Shown piece by piece: positions 1 to 10,386 of a stretch of DNA of 10,386 nucleotides. The notes beneath the pieces are model-generated. The model did not search any database. It saw nothing but the letters and a program-made list of their open reading frames with translations, and had not been told where the DNA came from. Made by a program: the position numbers and the translations under genes. Location: positions 1 to 10,386 of the IMG/VR virus record IMGVR_UViG_2529292735_000026. The stretch is one strand, 5' to 3'. How positions within the stretch are numbered: position 1 is the first letter of the stretch; the number at the start of each line of letters is the position of its first letter. This DNA is from a virus (lineage: Duplodnaviria; Heunggongvirae; Uroviricota; Caudoviricetes).

Positions 1-369
1 ATGAATGGAATGGTGGAGAAGAATGGCACGCTGTCGAAAAAATCCAGACTGGGCGAAGCGTTCAGCTATGTACTGAATCAGTGGGACGCCCTCTGTTATT
101 ACAGTGATGACGGTCTGGCGGAGGTGGACAATAACACAGCGGAAAGAGCGCTTCGTGCAGTCTGTCTCGGAAAGAAAAATTACGTGTTCTTCGGTAGCGA
201 TCACGGCGGCGAGCGTGGAGCACTGCTGTACGGGCTGATCGGCACCTGCCGACTGAACGGTATCGATCCGGAAGCGTATCTGCGCCATATTCTGAGCGTA
301 CTGCCGGAATGGCCCTCCAACCGTGTTGACGAACTCCTGCCATGGAACGTAGTACTCACCAATAAATAA
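1..369 (+). CDS. IS66-family transposase, C-terminal fragment (5' end lies outside the window)
   Basis: Translation (…KNYVFFGSDHGGERGALLYGLIGTCRLNGIDPEAYLRHILSVLPEWPSNRVDELLPW…) resembles the conserved C-terminal region of IS66-family TnpC transposases as I recall them; ORF runs to the window edge; stop TAA at 367-369. Confidence 0.8.
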   Translation: MNGMVEKNGTLSKKSRLGEAFSYVLNQWDALCYYSDDGLAEVDNNTAERALRAVCLGKKNYVFFGSDHGGERGALLYGLIGTCRLNGIDPEAYLRHILSVLPEWPSNRVDELLPWNVVLTNK

Positions 370-399: not shown

Positions 400-762
400 G
401 ATAATATCATCCGCTATGTGGAAAAGGATGTGACAGCTATCAGACCGGATGGATTAAGTGTTGTTGAAGTGGCGGATATTACTGCTAACCGACGGGCGGA
501 CATTTCAGGGAACTGGATGTTTAAGGATGGCACAGTGATCAAACGAATTTATACGGCAGAGGAATTGCAACTGCAGGCAGAAAACCGGAAAGCCAGACTT
601 CTTGCAGATGCTGAATCCGTGATTTTGCCGCTAGAGCGTGCTGTCAGGCTGAACATGGCAACAGAGGAGGAGCGCACACGGCTGGAGGCTTGGGAACGCT
701 ACAGCGTTGTGGTCAGTCGTGTGGATCCTGCAAATCCTGAATGGCCGGAAATGCCGCAATAA
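400..762 (+). pseudogene. Tail fibre assembly protein (P2 G-like), 3' remnant truncated by the IS66 insertion
   Basis: Frame is open from the IS junction with no ATG or RBS (only a GTG at 418); translation ends …[34 protein letters not shown], the conserved C-terminal region of phage Tfa proteins (P2 G, lambda Tfa, Mu U); about 120 codons where an intact G-like protein is about 175 aa. Confidence 0.7.
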
Positions 763-948
763 GTTGTATGAACTCTGGTGTGAGCTTACATATCTATGGC
801 ACAGAGTAAAGCCTAATCTGACAGTCCGCTCTGTGCCAGGAGCGGAAGTTGCCAAGAGAACTCTTGCAAAGGTATGATAACGTAGGTGCTAAATAATCAT
901 GAACCATAATAAATTAAAGGTTTTTAAGTTAACTCTATGGCGTTTCTT

Positions 949-978
949 TTGCATGATGATTTTTATTTATTATATAAA
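949..978 (+). promoter_or_regulatory. Putative sigma70-type promoter for the 447-aa cargo ORF (TTGCAT, 18-nt spacer, TATAAA)
   Basis: TTGCAT at 949-954 and TATAAA at 973-978 inside a very AT-rich stretch, about 65 nt upstream of ATG 1043; pattern match only. Confidence 0.35.
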
Positions 979-1042
979 GCTTAAATATACATAATATTTA
1001 GCTTCATTTTTTTAGGTATTTTAAAGATTTAGAGGAATGTGA

Positions 1043-2386
1043 ATGGCTACTTATGCTTCTTATTTACCAGAATCACAAATTATCACTTTGTGCAAGGATT
1101 TCCCAGCGTTTACTGATCCTGAAAAATTAGATGGATTCATTAATCCAGAACAGTTTGGCGTGTTTTTTCATGAGTGGATTCATTTTCTTCACAATATTTC
1201 CACAATTAATGGGTTTTCTATTTTTTGCACGCAAAACATCCTGTGGTCTAATTTTCGCTGGGCAATGGACAATCAGGATGTATGTCTTGGTTCAAATGAC
1301 ATGGATCCAGCACATATCGAATCAAACAAAAATTTTCTCAGTTACATTCGTTCCAATAGGAGTCTGCATAAATGTAACTTACCTTATTATGTAAAAGTAA
1401 ACGACTTGTATTTTGAGGATGCAATAATCCATGACATGGAGGTTGCTGACGGTAGTGTTATATGTACATCATTAATAAAGTGTAGAATTTCTCATTCTGA
1501 AAACAAATACGATCTAGATTTAGGCGTGCTTGAAATACTTGAATCCGCAGCTTTTATGCTTGAATGTAAGTGTATTAATGCGATGAATGGCTTCCCTCAA
1601 GAGGCACCCTTTTATCCGTATCATACTATCAAGGGCTTAGCAGCGAAAATTGCTCCGTCATTAAATGATGAAGATATTATTTGTTGTATGTTAGCTTCTT
1701 TGCAATCTAATAACCCTCCCCAAGTATTATTCAATCTACTACATAAATGTGAATTATTACATTCTGATTGTAGGTATGAACATCTAGTGGCGGAGGTGAA
1801 AAAACAATTAAGCGAACAAGATCAAATAATAAGCGAGTCACTTAATCAAATAATTCAAATGATTCCTGTTGATGAACCGATGGGAAACTTTATCAAGCTT
1901 ACTCTTAACAGAATAAGTAACAATTTGAACTATAGAAAGCAAAAACCGTTTTTTGAGTTAGATATAATAAAAAAAATAGCAGAAAAAACTGAGTTTATGA
2001 ATGAAGTAATACAGAAATTCGGTGGTTGCACTATCATCCAGGTAAGACATGGAGATGATAATGAACCACAGCGTGATATTATGTATGACTTTTGCTTACC
2101 TGAAAATAATGATTCAATTTTATTTGGTTCGAAAATGCTACGCGCTTGTTTTCACTTTATATTTATTCACTTTAAACTTTCTGGTGAAATCATGAAGACA
2201 GAAGAATTAAATATTTCGCCGCGTAATAAATGCCCATTTTATACTGTTTGCTGTGCATCAATTCGAGCTAATAATAGTAATATCTGCGCTGAATCCCCTT
2301 GGAAATCAATGTCTATTGATGACAACAAAGGTTGTTATTATGCAGCAGCGATTAAAGCTACTAACCCACCAGTTTTGCCGGATTAA
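1043..2386 (+). CDS. Hypothetical protein, 447 aa; AT-rich cargo gene in the G-FI (Z/fun-equivalent) slot; HExxH motif near the N-terminus, cysteine-rich; candidate phage-exclusion or defence protein
   Basis: Long uninterrupted ORF; RBS AGAGGAA at 1029-1035 about 7 nt before the ATG; sampled 60-nt stretches are about 23-37% G+C against about 60% in the adjacent sheath gene; followed by a hairpin and an intrinsic terminator; no competing ORF on either strand between 860 and 2640. Confidence 0.85.
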   Translation: MATYASYLPESQIITLCKDFPAFTDPEKLDGFINPEQFGVFFHEWIHFLHNISTINGFSIFCTQNILWSNFRWAMDNQDVCLGSNDMDPAHIESNKNFLSYIRSNRSLHKCNLPYYVKVNDLYFEDAIIHDMEVADGSVICTSLIKCRISHSENKYDLDLGVLEILESAAFMLECKCINAMNGFPQEAPFYPYHTIKGLAAKIAPSLNDEDIICCMLASLQSNNPPQVLFNLLHKCELLHSDCRYEHLVAEVKKQLSEQDQIISESLNQIIQMIPVDEPMGNFIKLTLNRISNNLNYRKQKPFFELDIIKKIAEKTEFMNEVIQKFGGCTIIQVRHGDDNEPQRDIMYDFCLPENNDSILFGSKMLRACFHFIFIHFKLSGEIMKTEELNISPRNKCPFYTVCCASIRANNSNICAESPWKSMSIDDNKGCYYAAAIKATNPPVLPD

Positions 2387-2520
2387 GAATAGTGTTCTAT
2401 CTGATAAATATAAAATATTTAAGGTCAGGTCTGCTTATCGCTCAAAGCAGACTGTCAGATTTGATAACGTTTGGGCTATGTAAACCGTCAGTTGGAAAAT
2501 GAGTGAGTGCAAGTCAGGAC

Positions 2521-2548
2521 AGGCGGGCGGATTGCCCGCCTTTTCTTT
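2521..2548 (+). terminator. Rho-independent terminator downstream of the cargo ORF
   Basis: Perfect 8-bp GC-rich stem aggcgggc (2521-2528) / gcccgcct (2534-2541), 5-nt loop, followed by TTTCTTT. Confidence 0.6.
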
Positions 2549-2549
2549 A

Positions 2550-2640
2550 TCTGTTGTTTCATCCACTGACCAGCCAGGTCAAATAGCGCCTCATGCTCTG
2601 CACAACAGAAAATAGTTGCACCCATTAACCACGGAGTTAA
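2550..2640 (+). promoter_or_regulatory. Putative Ogr-dependent late promoter (P_F equivalent) upstream of FI
   Basis: Positional analogy to P2 P_F. A TGT-N12-cCA element (2555-2572) is a one-mismatch match to the TGT-N12-ACA dyad I recall for P2 late promoters, centred about 80 nt upstream of the FI ATG; no convincing -10 hexamer identified. Confidence 0.3.
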
Positions 2641-2644
2641 ACGG

Positions 2645-3835
2645 ATGAGTGACTATCATCACGGCGTGCAGGTGCTGGAGATTAACGACGGCACACGCGT
2701 CATTTCCACCGTATCCACTGCCATTGTCGGCATGGTCTGCACGGCCAGCGATGCGGATGCGGAAACCTTCCCCCTCAATAAACCTGTGCTGATTACCAAT
2801 GTGCAGAGTGCAATTGCAAAGGCCGGTAAAAAAGGCACGCTGGCGGCATCGTTGCAGGCCATCGCTGACCAGTCAAAACCGGTCACCGTTGTCGTGCGCG
2901 TGGAAGACGGCACCGGTGATGACGAGGAAACGAAACTCGCGCAGACCGTTTCTAATATTATCGGCACCACTGACGAAAACGGTCAGTACACCGGACTGAA
3001 AGCCCTGCTGGCGGCGGAGTCGGTAACCGGTGTTAAACCGCGTATTCTTGGTGTGCCGGGGCTGGATACCAAAGAGGTGGCTGTTGCACTGGCATCAGTC
3101 TGTCAGAAGCTGCGCGCTTTCGGATATATCAGCGCATGGGGCTGTAAGACCATTTCCGAGGTGAAAGCCTACCGCCAGAATTTCAGCCAGCGTGAGCTGA
3201 TGGTCATCTGGCCGGATTTCCTCGCATGGGATACGGTCACCAGTACCACCGCCACCGCGCATGCCACCGCCCGTGCGCTGGGTCTGCGCGCTAAAATCGA
3301 CCAGGAGCAGGGCTGGCATAAAACGCTGTCCAACGTTGGGGTAAACGGTGTTACCGGCATCAGCGCATCTGTATTCTGGGATTTGCAGGAGTCCGGCACC
3401 GATGCTGACCTGCTTAACGAGTCAGGCGTCACTACGCTGATTCGCCGTGACGGTTTCCGCTTCTGGGGTAACCGTACCTGCTCTGATGACCCGCTGTTCC
3501 TCTTTGAAAACTACACCCGCACCGCGCAGGTGCTGGCCGACACGATGGCTGAGGCGCACATGTGGGCGGTGGACAAGCCCATCACCGCAACGCTGATTCG
3601 CGACATCGTTGACGGCATCAATGCCAAATTCCGTGAGCTGAAAACAAACGGCTATATCGTGGATGCGACCTGCTGGTTCAGCGAAGAATCCAACGATGCG
3701 GAAACCCTCAAGGCCGGAAAACTGTATATCGACTACGACTATACCCCGGTGCCTCCTCTCGAAAACCTGACCCTGCGCCAGCGTATTACTGATAAATACC
3801 TGGCAAGTCTGGTCACCTCGGTTAACAGCAATTAA
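2645..3835 (+). CDS. FI: Contractile tail sheath protein (P2 gpFI-like), 396 aa
   Basis: N-terminus MSDYHHGVQVLEINDGTRVI… and length match P2 FI as I recall it; high G+C; syntenic with the following tail genes. Confidence 0.93.
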   Translation: MSDYHHGVQVLEINDGTRVISTVSTAIVGMVCTASDADAETFPLNKPVLITNVQSAIAKAGKKGTLAASLQAIADQSKPVTVVVRVEDGTGDDEETKLAQTVSNIIGTTDENGQYTGLKALLAAESVTGVKPRILGVPGLDTKEVAVALASVCQKLRAFGYISAWGCKTISEVKAYRQNFSQRELMVIWPDFLAWDTVTSTTATAHATARALGLRAKIDQEQGWHKTLSNVGVNGVTGISASVFWDLQESGTDADLLNESGVTTLIRRDGFRFWGNRTCSDDPLFLFENYTRTAQVLADTMAEAHMWAVDKPITATLIRDIVDGINAKFRELKTNGYIVDATCWFSEESNDAETLKAGKLYIDYDYTPVPPLENLTLRQRITDKYLASLVTSVNSN

Positions 3836-3847
3836 GGAGCCTGACCG

Positions 3848-4366
3848 ATGGCAATGCCGCGCAAACTCAAGTTAATGAACGTCTTTCTGAACGGCTACAA
3901 CTATCAGGGCGTCGCGAAGTCCGTCACGCTGCCAAAACTGACCCGTAAGCTCGAAAACTATCGCGGTGCGGGGATGAACGGCAGCGCACCGGTAGACCTC
4001 GGCCTTGATGACGATGCGCTGTCAATGGAGTGGTCGCTCGGTGGCTTCCCGGATTCGGTTATCTGGGAGCTTTACGCCGCAACCGGTGTGGATGCCGTAC
4101 CGATTCGTTTTGCAGGCTCTTACCAGCGCGACGATACCGGCGAAACGGTGGCCGTCGAGGTGGTCATGCGTGGACGTCAGAAAGAAATCGACACCGGCGA
4201 GGGCAAACAGGGAGAAGACACCGAGTCGAAAATCTCCGTGGTCTGCACCTATTTCCGGCTGACGATGGACGGTAAGGAGCTGGTCGAAATCGACACCATC
4301 AACATGATTGAGAAGGTGAACGGCGTCGACCGGCTGGAGCAACACCGCCGCAATATCGGCCTGTGA
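3848..4366 (+). CDS. FII: Tail tube protein (P2 gpFII-like), 172 aa
   Basis: Sits immediately downstream of the sheath gene with RBS AAGGAG; size and position match P2 FII. Confidence 0.92.
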   Translation: MAMPRKLKLMNVFLNGYNYQGVAKSVTLPKLTRKLENYRGAGMNGSAPVDLGLDDDALSMEWSLGGFPDSVIWELYAATGVDAVPIRFAGSYQRDDTGETVAVEVVMRGRQKEIDTGEGKQGEDTESKISVVCTYFRLTMDGKELVEIDTINMIEKVNGVDRLEQHRRNIGL

Positions 4367-4422
4367 TTTTCATCCGGTCAGCCTGGCTGACCGGTTAACC
4401 CCGATTCAGAAGTGAGAAAACC

Positions 4423-4698
4423 ATGAACAAAGAAAACGTCATTACCCTGGACAATCCGGTCAAACGTGGTGAGCAGGTTATCGAACAGGTCACGCTGATG
4501 AAACCCAATGCCGGGACGCTACGCGGTGTCAGTCTGGCTGCAGTCGCGAACTCCGAAGTCGATGCACTGATTAAAGTGCTGCCGCGCATGACGGCACCGA
4601 TGCTGACCGAGCAGGAAGTCGCCGCGCTGGAACTGCCTGACCTTGTGGCGCTGGCCGGTAAGGTGGTCGGTTTTTTGTCGCCGAACTCGGTGCAGTGA
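4423..4698 (+). CDS. E: Tail assembly chaperone gpE (P2 E-like), 91 aa
   Basis: Short ORF between the tube and tape-measure genes, the conserved position of tail chaperone genes; contains the slippery heptamer T_TTT_TTG at 4671-4677 near its 3' end. Confidence 0.9.
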   Translation: MNKENVITLDNPVKRGEQVIEQVTLMKPNAGTLRGVSLAAVANSEVDALIKVLPRMTAPMLTEQEVAALELPDLVALAGKVVGFLSPNSVQ

Positions 4699-4850
4699 CG
4701 TTTCCGAAAAATCTCTCGGTCGATGACCTGATGGCGGATGTGGCAGTGATATTTCACTGGCCGCCATCAGAACTGTATCCCATGAGCCTGACCGAACTCA
4801 TCACATGGCGCGAAAAGGCGCTCCGGCGAAGCGGAAACACGAATGAGTAA
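4423..4850 (+). CDS. E': gpE+E' fusion made by programmed -1 ribosomal frameshift at 4671-4677 (about 142 aa)
   Basis: The -1 frame is open from the slippery site T_TTT_TTG to a TAA at 4848-4850, overlapping the T start codon at 4843; mirrors the E/E' arrangement described for P2 and the G/GT chaperone of lambda. Confidence 0.75.
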
Positions 4851-7290
4851 CAATGTAAAATTACAGGTATTGCTCAGGGCTGTTGACCAGGCATCCCGCC
4901 CGTTTAAATCCATCCGCACAGCGAGCAAGTCGCTGTCGGGGGATATCCGGGAAACACAAAAATCACTGCGCGAGCTGAACGGTCACGCATCCCGTATTGA
5001 GGGATTTCGCAAGACCAGTGCGCAGCTCGCCGTGACTGGTCATGCACTTGAAAAGGCACGGCAGGAAGCCGAAGCCCTTGCCACACAGTTTAAAAACACC
5101 GAACGTCCGACCCGTGCTCAGGCGAAAGTGCTGGAATCCGCAAAGCGAGCGGCGGAGGACTTACAGGCGAAATATAACCGCCTGACGGATTCCGTTAAAC
5201 GCCAGCAGCGGGAACTGGCCGCTGTGGGAATTAATACCCGCAATCTTGCACATGATGAGCAGGGACTGAAAAACCGTATCAGTGAAACCACCGCACAGCT
5301 TAACCGGCAGCGTGACGCGCTGGCGCGTGTCAGTGCGCAACAGGCAAAACTTAACGCAGTAAAACAGCGCTATCAGGCAGGAAAGGAGCTGGCCGGAAAT
5401 ATGGCCTCAGTGGGCGCTGCCGGTGTGGGGATTGCGGCGGCGGGAACGATGGCCGGTGTTAAGCTGCTGATGCCCGGTTATGAATTTGCGCAGAAAAACT
5501 CAGAATTACAGGCCGTGCTCGGTGTGGCAAAAGACTCCGCCGAAATGGCCGCGCTACGCAAGCAGGCGCGCCAGCTCGGCGACAATACCGCCGCCTCGGC
5601 GGATGATGCGGCCGGTGCACAGATAATCATCGCGAAAGCGGGTGGGGATGTTGATGCCATTCAGGCGGCAACGCCGGTCACGCTGAATATGGCGCTGGCG
5701 AACCGTCGCACGATGGAAGAAAACGCCGCCCTGCTGATGGGGATGAAATCTGCCTTTCAGCTTTCAAACGATAAGGTTGCTCATATCGGGGATGTTCTCT
5801 CCATGACGATGAACAAAACCGCCGCCGATTTTGACGGTATGAGCGATGCGCTGACCTATGCCGCACCTGTGGCAAAAAATGCCGGTGTCAGCATTGAAGA
5901 AACCGCCGCAATGGTCGGGGCGCTGCATGATGCAAAAATCACAGGCTCAATGGCGGGGACGGGAAGCCGTGCCGTGTTAAGCCGCCTGCAGGCACCGACG
6001 GGAAAAGCATGGGATGCACTCAAAGAGCTTGGCGTGAAAACCTCAGACAGCAAGGGAAACACCCGGCCAATATTTACCATTCTGAAAGAAATGCAGGCCA
6101 GTTTTGAGAAAAACCGGCTCGGTACTGCCCAGCAGGCTGAATACATGAAAACTATTTTCGGGGAGGAGGCCAGCTCAGCCGCCGCCGTGCTGATGACCGC
6201 CGCCTCAACCGGAAAGCTGGACAAACTGACCGCTGCGTTTAAAGCCTCAAACGGGAAGACTGCCGAGCTGGTAAATATCATGCAGGACAACCTCGGCGGT
6301 GACTTTAAGGAGTTTCAGTCCGCTTATGAGGCGGTGGGGACAGACCTGTTTGACCAGCAGGAAGGCGCACTGCGCAAGCTCACACAGACGGCCACAAAGT
6401 ATGTGTTAAAACTCGACGGCTGGATCCAGAAAAACAAATCACTGGCGTCAACCATTGGCATCATTGCCGGTGGCGCGCTGGCGCTTATTGGCATCATCGG
6501 TGCAATTGGTCTTGTAGCCTGGCCGGTTATCACTGGCATCAATGCTATCATCGCGGCAGCAGGCGCAATGGGGGCAATCTTCACGACGGTTGGCAGTGCT
6601 GTTATGACGGCCATCGGGGCGATTAGCTGGCCGGTTGTGGCCGTGGTGGCCGCCATTGTCGCCGGGGCGTTGCTTATCCGTAAATACTGGGAGCCTGTCA
6701 GCGCATTCTTTGGCGGTGTGGTGGAAGGGCTGAAAGCGGCATTTGCGCCGGTGGGGGAACTGTTCACGCCACTTAAGCCGCTGTTTGACTGGCTGGGTGA
6801 AAAGTTACAGGCCGCGTGGCAGTGGTTTAAAAACCTGATTGCCCCGGTTAAAGCCACCCAGGACACCCTGAACCGTTGCCGTGACACGGGCGTCATGTTC
6901 GGGCAGGCACTGGCTGACGCGCTGATGCTGCCGCTTAATGCGTTCAACAAACTGCGCGGCGGTATTGACTGGGTACTGGAAAAACTCGGCGTCATCAACA
7001 AAGAGTCAGGCACGCTTGACCAGACTGCCGCCAGAACTCATGCCGCCACGTATGGCACCGGTGGTTATATTCCGGCGACCAGCTCTTATGCTGGCTATCA
7101 GGCTTATCAGCCAGTTACGGCACCGGCTGGCCGCTCTTATGTGGACCAGAGTAAAAACGAATATCACATCAACCTGACGGGCGGTACTGCGCAGGGGACA
7201 CAGCTCGACCGCCAGTTACAGGATGCGCTCGAAAAATACGAGCGGGATAAACGTGCGCGCGCCCGTGCCAGCATGATGCATGACGGTTAA
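4843..7290 (+). CDS. T: Tail tape measure protein (P2 gpT-like), 815 aa
   Basis: Long ORF with a coiled-coil-like N-terminal part, a Gly/Ala-rich hydrophobic segment (…IGIIAGGALALIGIIGAIGLVAWPVITGINAIIAAAGAMGAIF…) and position after E/E'. Confidence 0.93.
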   Translation: MSNNVKLQVLLRAVDQASRPFKSIRTASKSLSGDIRETQKSLRELNGHASRIEGFRKTSAQLAVTGHALEKARQEAEALATQFKNTERPTRAQAKVLESAKRAAEDLQAKYNRLTDSVKRQQRELAAVGINTRNLAHDEQGLKNRISETTAQLNRQRDALARVSAQQAKLNAVKQRYQAGKELAGNMASVGAAGVGIAAAGTMAGVKLLMPGYEFAQKNSELQAVLGVAKDSAEMAALRKQARQLGDNTAASADDAAGAQIIIAKAGGDVDAIQAATPVTLNMALANRRTMEENAALLMGMKSAFQLSNDKVAHIGDVLSMTMNKTAADFDGMSDALTYAAPVAKNAGVSIEETAAMVGALHDAKITGSMAGTGSRAVLSRLQAPTGKAWDALKELGVKTSDSKGNTRPIFTILKEMQASFEKNRLGTAQQAEYMKTIFGEEASSAAAVLMTAASTGKLDKLTAAFKASNGKTAELVNIMQDNLGGDFKEFQSAYEAVGTDLFDQQEGALRKLTQTATKYVLKLDGWIQKNKSLASTIGIIAGGALALIGIIGAIGLVAWPVITGINAIIAAAGAMGAIFTTVGSAVMTAIGAISWPVVAVVAAIVAGALLIRKYWEPVSAFFGGVVEGLKAAFAPVGELFTPLKPLFDWLGEKLQAAWQWFKNLIAPVKATQDTLNRCRDTGVMFGQALADALMLPLNAFNKLRGGIDWVLEKLGVINKESGTLDQTAARTHAATYGTGGYIPATSSYAGYQAYQPVTAPAGRSYVDQSKNEYHINLTGGTAQGTQLDRQLQDALEKYERDKRARARASMMHDG

Positions 7291-7304
7291 GGAGGTGACG
7301 AAAA

Positions 7305-7784
7305 ATGATGCTCGCGTTAGGTATGTTTGTTTTTATGCGCCAGACGCTGCCACACCAGACCATGCAGCGTGAATCAGATTATCGCTGGCCGTCAAATTCC
7401 TGTATCGGTAAACGGGATGCCTTTCAGTTTCTCGGTGTGGGTGAGGAAAACATCACGCTTGCCGGTGTGCTTTATCCTGAACTGACCGGCGGGAAGCTGA
7501 CGATGACCACGCTCAGGCTGATGGCAGAGGAAGGCCGGGCGTGGCCGTTGCTGGATGGCACCGGCATGATTTACGGCATGTATGTCATCAGCAGGGTGAG
7601 TGAAACAGGGAGTATTTTCTTTGCAGACGGCACACCCCGGAAAATTGATTTTACGCTGTCGCTCACCCGCGTTGATGAATCACTGGCCGCGCTTTATGGC
7701 GATATCGGTAAACAGGCGGAATCGCTCATCGGTAAGGCTGGCAGTATGGCGACTAAATTCACGGGTATGACGGGGGCGGGATAA
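7305..7784 (+). CDS. U: Tail protein gpU (P2 U-like), 159 aa
   Basis: RBS AAGGAGG upstream; syntenic position between T and D; stop overlaps the D start (ATAATG). Confidence 0.9.
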   Translation: MMLALGMFVFMRQTLPHQTMQRESDYRWPSNSCIGKRDAFQFLGVGEENITLAGVLYPELTGGKLTMTTLRLMAEEGRAWPLLDGTGMIYGMYVISRVSETGSIFFADGTPRKIDFTLSLTRVDESLAALYGDIGKQAESLIGKAGSMATKFTGMTGAG

Positions 7785-8947
7785 TGCTGGATGCACTGAC
7801 ATTTGATGCAGGCAGTACGCTGACGCCGGATTACATGCTGATGCTCGACAGCAGGGATATTACCGGCAATATCAGCGACCGTCTGATGAGTATGACCCTG
7901 ACGGATAACCGGGGTTTTGAGGCTGACCAGCTTGATATTGAACTGAACGATGCCGACGGGCAGGTCGGGCTGCCGGTTCGTGGCGCTGTCCTGACGGTGT
8001 ATATCGGCTGGAAAGGTTTTGCCCTGGTATGCAAAGGGAAATTCACCGTTGATGAGGTTGAACACCGGGGCGCGCCGGATGTGGTCACCATCCGCGCCCG
8101 GAGTGCAGATTTCCGCGGGACGCTCAATTCCCGCCGTGAAGGTTCCTGGCATGACACCACGCTCGGTGCGATTGTTGAGGCGATAGCCTCCCGTAACAGG
8201 CTGGAAGCCAGTGTCGCTCCGTCACTGGCCGGAATTAAAATCCCGCACATCGACCAGTCGCAGGAGTCTGATGCGAAATTCCTGACCCGTCTTGCAGAAC
8301 GCAACGGCGGTGAGGTGTCGGTAAAAATGGGAAAATTGTTGTTTCTCAAAGCGGGGCAGGGGGTGACGGCCAGCGGTAAGAAAATCCCGCAGGTCACCAT
8401 CACCCGCAGCGACGGCGACCGTCATCATTTTGCGATTGCTGACCGTGGAGCCTACACCGGCGTAACGGCAAAGTGGTTACACACCAAAGACCCGAAGCCG
8501 CAAAAGCAGAAGGTAAAACTGAAACGCAAAAAGAAAGAAAAACACCTGCGCGCACTGGAGCACCCGAAAGCGAAACCGGTCAGGCAGAAGATAGCGCCCA
8601 AAGTGCCGGAAGCGCGCGAAGGTGAATACATGGCCGGTGAGGCTGATAACGTTTTTGCCCTGACCACGGTATATGCCACGAAAGCACAGGCCATGCGCGC
8701 CGCTCAGGCGAAGTGGGACAAACTGCAACGGGGCGTTGCGGAGTTCTCCATCAGCCTTGCCACTGGTCGGGCTGATATTTACACGGAAACGCCGGTCAGA
8801 GTGTCAGGCTTTAAGCGCGTCATAGACGAGCAGGACTGGACAATCACTAAGGTGACACATTTTCTGAATAATAGCGGCTTCACGACGTCCTTGGAGCTTG
8901 AGGTCAGGCTTTCTGATGTGGAGTACGAAACAGAAGATGATGAGTGA
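7784..8947 (+). CDS. D: Tail protein gpD (P2 D-like), 387 aa
   Basis: Translationally coupled to U; size and position match P2 D; contains a Lys-rich segment (…KPQKQKVKLKRKKKEKH…). Confidence 0.9.
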   Translation: MLDALTFDAGSTLTPDYMLMLDSRDITGNISDRLMSMTLTDNRGFEADQLDIELNDADGQVGLPVRGAVLTVYIGWKGFALVCKGKFTVDEVEHRGAPDVVTIRARSADFRGTLNSRREGSWHDTTLGAIVEAIASRNRLEASVAPSLAGIKIPHIDQSQESDAKFLTRLAERNGGEVSVKMGKLLFLKAGQGVTASGKKIPQVTITRSDGDRHHFAIADRGAYTGVTAKWLHTKDPKPQKQKVKLKRKKKEKHLRALEHPKAKPVRQKIAPKVPEAREGEYMAGEADNVFALTTVYATKAQAMRAAQAKWDKLQRGVAEFSISLATGRADIYTETPVRVSGFKRVIDEQDWTITKVTHFLNNSGFTTSLELEVRLSDVEYETEDDE

Positions 8948-9028
8948 TGTTTTTATTTTATCTATTTGTTTTATAAGGATAAATTAACTAGAATGGCACT
9001 ATCAACAAAACCGGAAGAGGTGCTCGCG

Positions 9029-9247
9029 ATGTTTCATTGTCCTTTATGCCAGCATGCCGCACATGCGCGTACAAGCCGCTATATCACTGACACGACAAAA
9101 GAGCGTTATCACCAGTGTCAGAACGTGAATTGCAGCGCCACGTTCATCACCTATGAGTCGGTACAGAGATACATCGTGAAGCCGGGAGAAGTCCACGCCG
9201 TAAGGCCGCACCCGTTGCCGTCAGGGCAGCAAATTATGTGGATGTGA
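9029..9247 (+). CDS. ogr: Late transcription activator Ogr (zinc-finger), 72 aa
   Basis: Translation MFHCPLCQHAAHARTSRYITDTTKERYHQCQNVNCSATFITYESVQRYIVKPGEVHAVRPHPLPSGQQIMWM matches P2 Ogr as I recall it, with the C-x2-C…C-x4-C zinc finger; ATG 9029 chosen over the upstream TTG (8966) and ATG (8993) because of the GAGG RBS spacing and the canonical 72-aa length. Confidence 0.9.
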   Translation: MFHCPLCQHAAHARTSRYITDTTKERYHQCQNVNCSATFITYESVQRYIVKPGEVHAVRPHPLPSGQQIMWM

Positions 9248-9251
9248 TCAC

Positions 9252-9285
9252 AAAAATAGCCCCTCAGTTGAGGGGCTTTATTTAT
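9252..9285 (+). terminator. Rho-independent terminator after ogr (end of the late/tail transcription unit)
   Basis: 9-bp stem agcccctca (9258-9266) / tgaggggct (9269-9277) with a 2-nt loop, flanked by an A-run upstream and TTATTTAT downstream. Confidence 0.6.
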
Positions 9286-9291
9286 GGTCGA

Positions 9292-9320
9292 TGTGGACGC
9301 TATGTGGACAGCGGTTGACA
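9292..9320 (+). other. Putative integrase arm-type binding sites in attR (direct repeats TGTGGAC-G, TGTGGACA, GTTGACA)
   Basis: Three direct repeats at 9292, 9303 and 9314 with roughly one helical turn spacing; TGTGGACA is, to my recollection, the arm-site consensus of P2 integrase; located between ogr and host DNA where the attR arm is expected. Confidence 0.5.
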
Positions 9321-9375
9321 TAAATCCATTTATATCATCAGGTTAGGTGCTTTTTTGTGACACCATCCCTGTCTT

Positions 9376-9403
9376 CCCCCACATGATGTGGGGGTTTTTT
9401 TTA
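9376..9403 (+). terminator. Strong rho-independent terminator; probably host-derived (possibly the 3' end of the cpxP/CpxQ transcript) or part of the att core region
   Basis: GC-rich stem cccccaca / tgtggggg around a short loop, followed by a T8 run (9395-9402). Confidence 0.65.
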
Positions 9404-9429
9404 TCCTCAATTTGCCTGCTGCTTAATGC

Positions 9430-9456
9430 ATTGCAGATGATTTGCTTCCGTTATAC
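9430..9456 (+). promoter_or_regulatory. Possible fieF promoter (TTGCAG, 15-nt spacer, TATACT)
   Basis: Hexamer match only; spacer is short; about 30 nt upstream of the fieF ATG. Confidence 0.25.
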
Positions 9457-9483
9457 TAGCGTCAGTTGATAGCGGGAGTATTT

Positions 9484-10386
9484 ATGAATCAATCTTATGG
9501 ACGGCTGGTCAGTCGGGCGGCGATTGCTGCGACGGCGATGGCTTCGTTGCTATTGCTGATTAAAATTTTTGCATGGTGGTATACCGGGTCGGTGAGTATT
9601 CTCGCCGCGCTGGTGGATTCGCTGGTGGATATCGGCGCGTCGTTGACGAATTTACTGGTGGTGCGATATTCCCTGCAACCTGCCGACGATAATCACTCGT
9701 TTGGTCACGGTAAAGCAGAGTCCCTCGCGGCGCTGGCGCAAAGTATGTTTATCTCCGGTTCGGCACTATTCCTGTTTTTGACGGGTATTCAACATCTGAT
9801 ATCTCCAACACCGATGACAGATCCAGGCGTCGGGGTTATCGTGACAATTGTGGCGCTAATTTGTACGATTATCCTTGTCTCGTTTCAGCGTTGGGTGGTG
9901 CGCCGGACGCAAAGCCAGGCGGTGCGGGCTGATATGCTACATTACCAGTCTGATGTTATGATGAACGGCGCAATTCTGCTGGCGCTGGGGTTGTCCTGGT
10001 ACGGCTGGCATCGCGCCGATGCTCTGTTTGCATTGGGAATCGGCATCTATATTTTATATAGCGCGTTACGCATGGGATATGAGGCGGTACAGTCATTACT
10101 GGATCGCGCATTGCCTGATGAGGAACGGCAAGAAATTATTGATATCGTGACTTCCTGGCCGGGTGTTAGCGGCGCTCACGATCTTCGCACGCGGCAGTCA
10201 GGGCCGACCCGCTTTATTCAGATTCATTTGGAAATGGAAGACTCTCTGCCTTTGGTTCAGGCACATATGGTGGCGGATCAGGTAGAGCAGGCTATTTTAC
10301 GGCGTTTTCCGGGATCGGATGTGATTATCCATCAGGACCCCTGTTCCGTCGTACCCAGGGAGGGTAAACGGTCTATGCTTTCATAA
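9484..10386 (+). CDS. fieF: Cation diffusion facilitator family ferrous-iron/zinc efflux transporter FieF (YiiP), 300 aa
   Basis: Translation [49 protein letters not shown]… matches E. coli FieF/YiiP as I recall it; RBS GGGAG 5-6 nt upstream of ATG 9484; multiple TM helices followed by a cytoplasmic C-terminal domain; stop TAA at window end. Confidence 0.93.

What the first reader, a model, noticed from the sequence alone, without database searches (positions are those of the whole stretch)
9286..9410. attR region: TGTGGACA-type direct repeats and a host-like terminator mark the prophage-host junction next to fieF
Seen in sequence: repeats at 9292-9320 followed about 55 nt later by a strong hairpin plus T8 terminator. 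Established knowledge, as I recall it: P2 integrase binds TGTGGACA arm repeats, and in E. coli K-12 cpxP lies immediately upstream of fieF on the same strand, with the small RNA CpxQ derived from its 3' UTR. Inference: the prophage is integrated between cpxP and fieF and the att core may overlap or reconstitute the cpxP/CpxQ 3' end (roughly 9349-9403). I do not see the canonical P2 locI core as I remember it, which suggests a different core specificity.
Basis: partly seen in the sequence, partly recalled or inferred. Interest (0 to 1): 0.45.

Follow-up and report, generated by a model that had tools for sequence, protein, structure and literature searches.

The report
WPhi-type prophage attR at cpxP–fieF
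This is the right-hand junction (attR) of a P2-family prophage of the known WPhi integration type, inserted between cpxP and fieF inside the 3' part of the small RNA CpxQ; the site is published and common, so the finding is correct but ordinary.

Summary
Two ATGTGGAC repeats lie 11 bp apart at 9291-9309, and a strong hairpin plus T8 lies at 9376-9402.

The window carries P2-type tail genes and ogr, then attR, then fieF.

The att core is 47 bp (9359-9405). It is identical in phage WPhi attP, in the attL of related lysogens next to int and cpxP, and in unoccupied cpxP-fieF sites apart from one loop SNP. It covers CpxQ nt 15-58 plus 3 nt.

The repeats and the stretch after them align to the Int P-arm and IHF sites annotated in the P2 record.

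The site is published: WPhi attB at MG1655 4104392, and "cpxP-fieF: Wphi1 (P2)" in the E. coli W genome paper. It is occupied in 789 of 5426 complete E. coli genomes.

One small addition comes from the loop SNP at 9386:
- attL: always the phage allele A (0 of 789 carry C).
- attR: C in at least 152 genomes (19%).
- Empty sites: C in 20%.

Strand exchange therefore lies left of 9386, not in the terminator loop. The likely place is the first CpxQ stem-loop, GACA|CCATCCC|TGTC (9359-9373). The working CpxQ in lysogens ends in phage DNA, and the window holds the displaced host 3' part.

Novelty: already known. Interest is low.

The parts
9029..9247 (+). ogr (late-gene activator), the last prophage gene before the junction
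   Evidence: Pfam Ogr_Delta, E = 1.1e-21. Annotated as ogrK in genomes identical over this stretch.
9258..9285 (+). Intrinsic terminator of ogr and the F operon (hairpin 9258-9277 plus T-rich tail)
   Evidence: Terminator scan. Folds at -15.8 kcal/mol, z = -4.4. Aligns to the terminator annotated in the P2 record AF063097.
9288..9315 (+). Int arm-type binding region (P arm), with two direct ATGTGGAC repeats at 9291-9298 and 9302-9309
   Evidence: Repeats found. The stretch aligns to the 'protein_bind Int, P arm' feature of P2. It is conserved in WPhi, R18C, P2SIAC10 and Salmonella phage FSL SP-004. The published consensus is tgTGGaCa (PMC3448106).
9318..9351 (+). Probable IHF site; TATCATCAGGTTA at 9333-9345 fits WATCANNNNNTTR
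   Evidence: Pattern match. The stretch aligns to the annotated P2 IHF site and is conserved among attP sites. Binding itself was not tested.
9359..9405 (+). 47-bp att core, GACACCATCCCTGTCTTCCCCCACATGATGTGGGGGTTTTTTTTATC, equal to CpxQ nt 15-58 plus ATC
   Evidence: Identical in the window's attR, in the attL of WP3-S18-ESBL-09, M217 and GPEC1366, and in WPhi attP. K-12 attB differs by one base. Prophage-free genomes match the window from 9359. Phage records match up to 9405.
9359..9373 (+). Proposed strand-exchange region: 4-bp inverted repeat GACA/TGTC around the 7-nt CCATCCC (9363-9369). This is the first stem-loop of CpxQ.
   Evidence: Inferred. The SNP survey puts the exchange left of 9386. 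The distance from the second arm repeat to the centre of the P2 core site (61.5-63.5 nt) lands at 9364-9366 here. The RNA fold shows the stem-loop.
9376..9402 (+). cpxP/CpxQ intrinsic terminator (8-bp stem, 3-nt loop, T8). Host-derived in this junction. The loop SNP lies at 9386 (A here, C in K-12).
   Evidence: Terminator scan, fold, alignments and allele counts.
9406..9483 (+). Unaltered host sequence upstream of fieF
   Evidence: Identical to prophage-free genomes.
9484..10386 (+). fieF (CDF cation-efflux transporter), a host gene
   Evidence: RefSeq annotation of matching genomes.

Best explanation
Window 9286-9410 is attR (POB') of a P2-family (Peduovirus) prophage that uses the integrase specificity of phage WPhi.

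The phage attP has this layout: ogr terminator, two Int arm-type sites (TGTGGAC repeats), an IHF site, a 47-bp core, a spacer where P2 has its Cox sites, two more arm-type repeats, then int. The 47-bp core equals the last 44 nt of the host small RNA CpxQ (the 3' UTR of cpxP) plus 3 nt.

Int, bridging arm and core sites on DNA bent by IHF, recombines the phage core with the identical host sequence between cpxP and fieF.

Strand exchange takes place in the left part of the core. It is certainly left of position 9386. It is most likely in the 7-nt CCATCCC flanked by GACA/TGTC, which is the first stem-loop of CpxQ. This resembles the way other integrases use a tRNA anticodon stem-loop.

The consequences are as follows. 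At attL the cpxP-CpxQ unit is rebuilt, with its 3' two-thirds and terminator supplied by phage DNA. At attR, which is in this window, the original host 3' part of CpxQ is left behind the phage P arm, cut off from cpxP and lacking CpxQ nt 1-14. There it acts at most as a second terminator, after the ogr terminator, that shields fieF from phage transcription.

Shown: the identity and extent of the core, the location, the alignment of the arm and IHF regions to the sites annotated in P2, and the side of the SNP on which exchange occurs.

Inferred: the exact 7-bp overlap, IHF binding, and the insulating role.
For: Core and junctions. The same 47 bp occurs in the window's attR, in the attL of three lysogens, in WPhi attP and, with one loop mismatch, in K-12 attB. 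The core is invariant in four attP sequences, one of them from a phage of another genus.

Boundaries. Prophage-free genomes match from 9359. Phage genomes match up to 9405.

Context. P2-type sheath, tube, tape-measure, U, D and ogr genes lie upstream. In related genomes int, C and cox lie next to cpxP at the other end. The Int of one lysogen is 98% identical to WPhi Int.

Sites. Window 9288-9315 aligns to the Int P-arm site annotated in P2 and 9318-9351 to its IHF site.

Literature. WPhi integrates at MG1655 4104392 (PMC3448106, Table 1). 'cpxP-fieF: Wphi1 (P2)' is listed for E. coli W (PMC3032704, Table 2). The arm consensus is tgTGGaCa (PMC3448106).

CpxQ. It is 58 nt long and has U7 and C11 (PMC6755755, PMC10250213). 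Only a start at L001 1187 fits these, which places the core at CpxQ nt 15-58.

Crossover. Of 789 attR junctions, 382 are perfect with A and 152 with C. Of 528 + 261 = 789 attL junctions, none is perfect with C. Strain M217 has A at attL and C at attR. Of 43 phage records, 35 match arm plus core perfectly with A. Of 4591 empty sites, 908 (20%) match the K-12 sequence, which carries C, exactly.
Against: The exact overlap region rests on geometry and a short 4-bp inverted repeat. I did not verify the position of the P2 crossover, only the extent of the annotated P2 core site.

The lysogens surveyed are not independent, because many belong to the same clones. The 0-of-789 count therefore overstates the number of separate integration events.

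Perfect-match counting misses junctions that carry C together with another mismatch.

The window's source genome carries an IS66 element in the tail-fibre region, so this particular prophage may be defective and its attR may no longer be used.
Confidence: 0.9

Rival explanations
1. Strand exchange is centred on the terminator hairpin. Its 8-9-bp perfect inverted repeat (9376-9394) would be the pair of Int core-type sites, and the loop would be the overlap region.
For: It is the strongest inverted repeat in the core (I6). Symmetric hairpins are typical integrase targets.
Against: If the loop base 9386 lay in the overlap, the heteroduplex would leave the host allele C at attL in about half of the lysogens made in C hosts. 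None of 789 attL junctions is perfect with C, while at least 152 attR junctions carry C, and M217 shows A at attL with C at attR. The hairpin centre also lies about 82 nt from the second arm repeat, against 61.5-63.5 nt in P2.
Confidence: 0.04
2. The repeats and hairpin are only a chance resemblance or a decayed remnant, and the region is not a working recombination site.
For: TGTGGAC three times in the window is not significant on its own: 17 of 200 shuffles reach that count. The source genome has an IS66 fragment in the prophage.
Against: Arm plus core is 100% identical over 84 nt to the attP of isolated, viable phages such as WPhi, L-413C and fiAA91-ss. It aligns to the sites annotated in P2. 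The matching attL is intact in the closest genome.
Confidence: 0.03
3. The attR copy of the CpxQ 3' part is itself expressed, through read-through of the ogr terminator or processing at the U-rich stretch 9351-9356, and acts as a phage-linked CpxQ-like small RNA or Hfq decoy.
For: The copy keeps the first stem-loop, the C-rich stretch and the terminator with its U-tail. It lies downstream of ogr and the late F operon, whose transcripts end at the terminator just upstream (annotation). A U-rich stretch precedes it, as in the host.
Against: A strong terminator lies between ogr and the copy. The scan found no promoter on the + strand in 8900-9600. The copy lacks CpxQ nt 1-14, the 5' seed used for nhaB and cfa (PMC6755755). 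No expression data were available.
Confidence: 0.05

Closest known systems
Phage WPhi attP/attB (Peduovirus Wphi; also L-413C, fiAA91-ss and many P2-like prophages)
   Same: The 47-bp core is identical, and the 84 nt of P arm plus core are identical. The chromosomal location, cpxP-fieF, is the same (PMC3448106, PMC3032704). The Int of a related lysogen is 98% identical to WPhi Int.
   Different: Nothing essential differs. There are two single-base differences in the P arm (9312 and 9319). Some relatives carry another version of the spacer between the core and the P' arm, but the genome closest to the window has the WPhi version.
Phage P2 attP (locI specificity)
   Same: The layout is the same: ogr terminator, two TGTGGAC arm repeats, IHF site, core, Cox region, two arm repeats, int. 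The sequence aligns from ogr through the IHF region.
   Different: The core is unrelated: 27 bp, AAAAAATAAGCCCGTGTAAGGGAGATT, in P2 against the 47-bp CpxQ-derived core here. The host site is therefore different. The spacing from core to P' arm is about 20 bp longer in WPhi.
Integration into the 3' part of tRNA, tmRNA and small-RNA genes (186 at tRNA-Ile, Fels-2 and SopEPhi at ssrA, P2-type prophages at rybB and cyaR)
   Same: The phage carries a copy of the 3' part of a structured host RNA gene and rebuilds the gene on the int side. The block of identity runs from a stem-loop to the end of the RNA. The other P2-type sites in E. coli W, rybB and cyaR, are also small-RNA genes (PMC3032704, Table 2).
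   Different: The target here is a small RNA processed from an mRNA 3' UTR, not a stand-alone RNA gene. In the library I searched, no paper names this site as CpxQ.

Membership tests
WPhi-type att site of P2-family phages | Core sequence shared by attP, attB, attL and attR | tested here: met
   The 47 bp are identical in the window's attR, three attL junctions and WPhi attP. K-12 attB differs at one polymorphic loop base.
WPhi-type att site of P2-family phages | Chromosomal position between cpxP and fieF (MG1655 4104392) | tested here: met
   fieF lies directly downstream in the window. cpxP lies at the other prophage end in related genomes and directly upstream of fieF in K-12. See also PMC3448106 Table 1 and PMC3032704 Table 2.
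WPhi-type att site of P2-family phages | P2-type arm repeats (tgTGGaCa), two on each arm | tested here: met
   P arm repeats at 9291-9309. P' arm repeats GTGTGGACACTATGTGGACAC in attL and attP. The P arm aligns to the Int site annotated in P2.
WPhi-type att site of P2-family phages | Cognate tyrosine integrase encoded next to the P' arm | tested here: met
   Not in the window. In related lysogens int lies beside attL. One of them was compared and is 98% identical to WPhi Int.
WPhi-type att site of P2-family phages | Int, IHF and Cox binding, and recombination activity | not testable with these tools
   Supported only by alignment to the sites annotated in P2.
P2 locI-type att site | 27-bp P2 core sequence | tested here: not met
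   The P2 core does not align with the window's core. Alignable sequence ends within the IHF region, and the megablast match ends at 9309.
CpxQ small RNA gene (3' UTR of cpxP) | Complete 58-nt sequence contiguous with the cpxP coding region, including the 5' seed and the RNase E processing site | tested here: not met
   The window copy starts at CpxQ nt 15. Upstream is the phage P arm, not cpxP. The complete gene lies at attL.
CpxQ small RNA gene (3' UTR of cpxP) | First stem-loop and intrinsic terminator with U-tail | tested here: met
   The fold of 9349-9402 gives the same two hairpins as K-12 CpxQ.
Rfam RF02628 Hrs1 | Score at or above the gathering threshold (56.4 bits) | tested here: not met
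   31.8 bits in the window and 41.4 bits in K-12, both on the minus strand.

The most novel reading that the evidence does not exclude
The 47-bp core may be more than a recombination target. The copy carried by the phage and left at attR (CpxQ nt 15-58: first stem-loop, C-rich stretch and a terminator of the kind needed for Hfq binding) could be transcribed by read-through from ogr or the late F operon. Transcription of int running antisense across attL could also interfere with cpxP/CpxQ. Either way, P2-like phages would tune the Cpx envelope-stress response of their host. What is shown here is smaller: lysogeny replaces the 3' two-thirds of CpxQ with phage DNA, which changes the loop base from C to A in at least 152 sequenced genomes.
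Probability: 0.06. Interest if true: 0.55.

Novelty: already known. Interest (0 to 1): 0.18.

Why it matters
It matters little as a discovery. The WPhi attachment site between cpxP and fieF has been known for more than a decade, and WPhi integrase is already used in E. coli integration plasmids (pIT5 series; PMC12765450).

Three points are still useful.

First, annotation. About one in seven complete E. coli genomes (789 of 5426) carries a prophage here. In those strains the working CpxQ ends in phage DNA, and a truncated second copy of CpxQ sits in front of fieF. This can mislead small-RNA annotation, read mapping and probe design.

Second, the natural loop SNP gives a free genetic mapping of the crossover side for WPhi Int.

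Third, the site is another case of P2-type phages integrating at small-RNA genes; rybB and cyaR are the other P2-type sites listed for E. coli W.

Tried and rejected
Rfam at E <= 1 gave no family at gathering score. The only suggestive hit, Hrs1, is on the opposite strand and looks like a reversed CpxQ homologue.

I scanned one genome per species (genome contigs) with the 20-mer next to the core, hoping for lysogens in species whose CpxQ differs, to narrow the crossover. It gave a single unrelated chance hit in a Desulfocapsa MAG.

The promoter scan of 8900-9600 found no promoter on the + strand upstream of the truncated CpxQ copy. The TTGACA at 9315-9320 has no properly spaced -10 element, and it is not conserved (TTGATA in WPhi).

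I considered the degenerate third repeat GGTTGACA (9313-9320) as a third Int site and rejected it because it varies among attP sequences.

Three primary papers were not available in the library: Karlsson 2006, Chao and Vogel 2016, and the WPhi att papers. I therefore derived the CpxQ coordinates from the 58-nt length and the U7 and C11 positions given in PMC6755755 and PMC10250213. My recollections that the WPhi core is described as 47 nt and that CpxQ has a second seed region are left as unverified memory.

The GenBank entry AJ245959 (WPhi int region) carries no att annotation.

PADLOC and Pfam gave nothing for the 447-aa ORF.

Full report
**1. The observation**

The sequence is as described. 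ATGTGGAC occurs at 9291-9298 and 9302-9309, 11 bp apart. A hairpin with an 8-bp stem, 6 G-C pairs and a 3-nt loop, followed by T8, lies at 9376-9402.

TGTGGAC three times in the window is not significant on its own: 1.05 are expected, and 17 of 200 shuffles reach three. The context removes the doubt, as section 4 shows.

A second terminator hairpin lies at 9258-9277, right after ogr.

**2. Context**

Upstream, the window encodes P2-type tail sheath, tube, assembly chaperone, tape measure, gpU, gpD and Ogr (Pfam). Downstream lies fieF, starting at 9484.

In K-12, cpxP is followed directly by fieF on the same strand.

I checked the int-proximal end in three lysogens that share this junction. In each, the order int, attL, cpxP, cpxR, cpxA is found about 32-38 kb away:
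- WP3-S18-ESBL-09.
- M217.
- GPEC1366, the genome closest to the window at 100% identity over 400-10386.

**3. The junction and the core**

Prophage-free genomes match the window only from 9359 rightwards. Phage genomes match only up to 9405.

The 47 bp in between are GACACCATCCCTGTCTTCCCCCACATGATGTGGGGGTTTTTTTTATC. They are identical in:
- the window's attR;
- the attL of all three lysogens;
- the attP of phage WPhi.

K-12 attB differs at one base, the third loop nucleotide of the terminator (window 9386: A here, C in K-12).

The core is invariant in the attP of WPhi, R18C, P2SIAC10 and Salmonella phage FSL SP-004, which belongs to another genus. The Int of one lysogen is 98% identical to WPhi Int.

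**4. Comparison with the annotated P2 attP**

The P2 record AF063097 annotates, in this order: the ogr/F-operon terminator, Int (P arm), IHF, Int (attP core), Cox, and Int (P' arm).

The megablast match between P2 and the window runs from ogr through both arm repeats, up to 9309. The alignment stays close through the IHF region and is lost before the core.
- Window 9288-9315 corresponds to the P2 Int P-arm site.
- Window 9318-9351 corresponds to the P2 IHF site. It contains TATCATCAGGTTA at 9333-9345, which fits WATCANNNNNTTR.

The degenerate third repeat GGTTGACA varies among phages. It lies at the edge of the P2 Int site, so I do not count it as a site.

The int-side arm, seen in attL and attP, carries GTGTGGACACTATGTGGACAC in the same orientation.

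**5. Relation to CpxQ**

CpxQ is a 58-nt RNA cut by RNase E from the cpxP 3' UTR (PMC9438474, PMC6755755). Published position numbers are U7 (PMC10250213) and C11 (PMC6755755). Together with a 3' end at the last U of the terminator, these fit only a start at L001 1187: UUUUCCUUGCCAUAGACACC...

The core therefore equals CpxQ nt 15-58 plus ATC. The 5' seed used for nhaB and cfa (PMC6755755) lies outside the core.

Folding gives two hairpins in both the K-12 RNA and the window copy: AGACA/CCAUCCC/UGUCU, and the terminator.

**6. Where the exchange happens**

I used the loop SNP as a natural marker, with 99-nt junction queries against 5426 complete E. coli genomes.

| Junction | Genomes | Perfect with A | Perfect with C |
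|---|---|---|---|
| attR | 789 | 382 | 152 |
| attL, WP3-type P' arm | 528-530 | 327 | 0 |
| attL, WPhi-type P' arm | 261 | not queried | 0 |
| Empty attB | 4591 | not queried | 908 (20%; exact match to the K-12 sequence) |

In addition:
- 528 + 261 = 789, the same as the number of attR junctions.
- Strain M217 has A at attL and C at attR in the same genome.
- Of 43 phage records, 35 match the 84-nt arm plus core perfectly with A.

So the base at 9386 comes from the phage at attL and from the host at attR. That places strand exchange to its left, within 9359-9385, and rules out the terminator loop as the overlap region.

Three things point to GACA|CCATCCC|TGTC (9359-9373):
- It is a short inverted repeat around 7 nt.
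- The block of identity begins exactly at its left arm.
- The distance from the second arm repeat to the centre of the P2 core site (61.5-63.5 nt) lands at 9364-9366 in the window.

This last step is inference.

**7. What the window holds**

The window holds attR (POB'). It consists of the phage P arm, a few phage-derived core bases, and then the original host 3' part of CpxQ with its terminator and the untouched region upstream of fieF.

The functional cpxP-CpxQ unit is rebuilt at attL, with phage DNA supplying roughly nt 19/26-58.

The attR copy lacks the 5' seed and has no detectable promoter. Most likely it serves only as a second terminator in front of fieF.

**8. What is known**

- WPhi's site is listed at MG1655 4104392 (PMC3448106, Table 1).
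- E. coli W is listed with 'cpxP-fieF: Wphi1 (P2)' (PMC3032704, Table 2).
- An O157:H7 strain has a 31-kb prophage between cpxP and fieF (PMC7609406, Table 3).
- WPhi integrase is used in integration plasmids (PMC12765450).
- The arm consensus tgTGGaCa is published (PMC3448106).

In the library I searched, no paper connects CpxQ with an integrase or att site. The overlap follows directly once both sets of coordinates are known.

**9. Verdict**

The feature is a member of a known and common class. The only additions are the exact core limits, the mapping onto CpxQ nt 15-58, and the SNP-based placement of the crossover left of the terminator loop. Interest is low.

Noticed in passing
window 1-369 and 418-762: The window starts inside the C-terminal part of an IS66-family transposase (Pfam DDE_Tnp_IS66 and IS66_C). 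It abuts a tail-fibre assembly gene. The best-matching genomes match only from window position 400, so this IS insertion in the prophage tail-fibre region is specific to the source genome and the prophage may be defective.
   Followed up: partly
window 1043-2386 (+): A 447-aa ORF lies between the tail-fibre genes and the sheath gene FI. From memory, this is the position of the P2 Z/fun cargo slot. It has no Pfam hit and no PADLOC hit, so it may be an uncharacterised cargo or defence gene.
   Followed up: partly
window 9336-9402 (-) and L001 1172-1244 (-): Rfam RF02628 Hrs1 (Hfq-regulated sRNA 1) matches the CpxQ region on the opposite strand: 41.4 bits for K-12 CpxQ and 31.8 bits for the truncated attR copy, both below the gathering score of 56.4. 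The model consensus reads as the reverse complement of a CpxQ homologue. No sense-strand CpxQ family was reported by Rfam 15.
   Followed up: partly
L005 449-2883 (E. coli M217), between fieF/attR and ogr: 789 genomes have the attR junction, but only 623 match the 361-nt ogr-to-fieF stretch over at least 80% of its length. In M217 a hypothetical gene and an IS150 lie between the ogr terminator and the P arm, which suggests an extra cargo or insertion spot right next to attR.
   Followed up: partly
L003 12776-12700 (-), L004 22597-22677, L012 attL: The spacer between the core and the P' arm repeats, where P2 has its Cox sites, exists in two clearly different versions. The WPhi type is in 261 genomes and the WP3/R18C/FSL SP-004 type in about 528. 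In the three genomes examined, the two versions go with different Cox proteins (WP_000453534.1 and WP_001308179.1).
   Followed up: partly
NZ_JBQJRQ010000002.1 (hit H30): A separate 32,330-bp record of strain 2020N21-246-1 matches only the core part of the query (window 9361-9405). It may be an excised or episomal copy of the phage carrying attP.
   Followed up: no
5426 complete E. coli genomes, cpxP-fieF site: 4591 genomes have an empty site and 789 have a WPhi-type prophage junction. About 46 genomes fit neither query, so another element or a rearrangement may occupy the site there.
   Followed up: no
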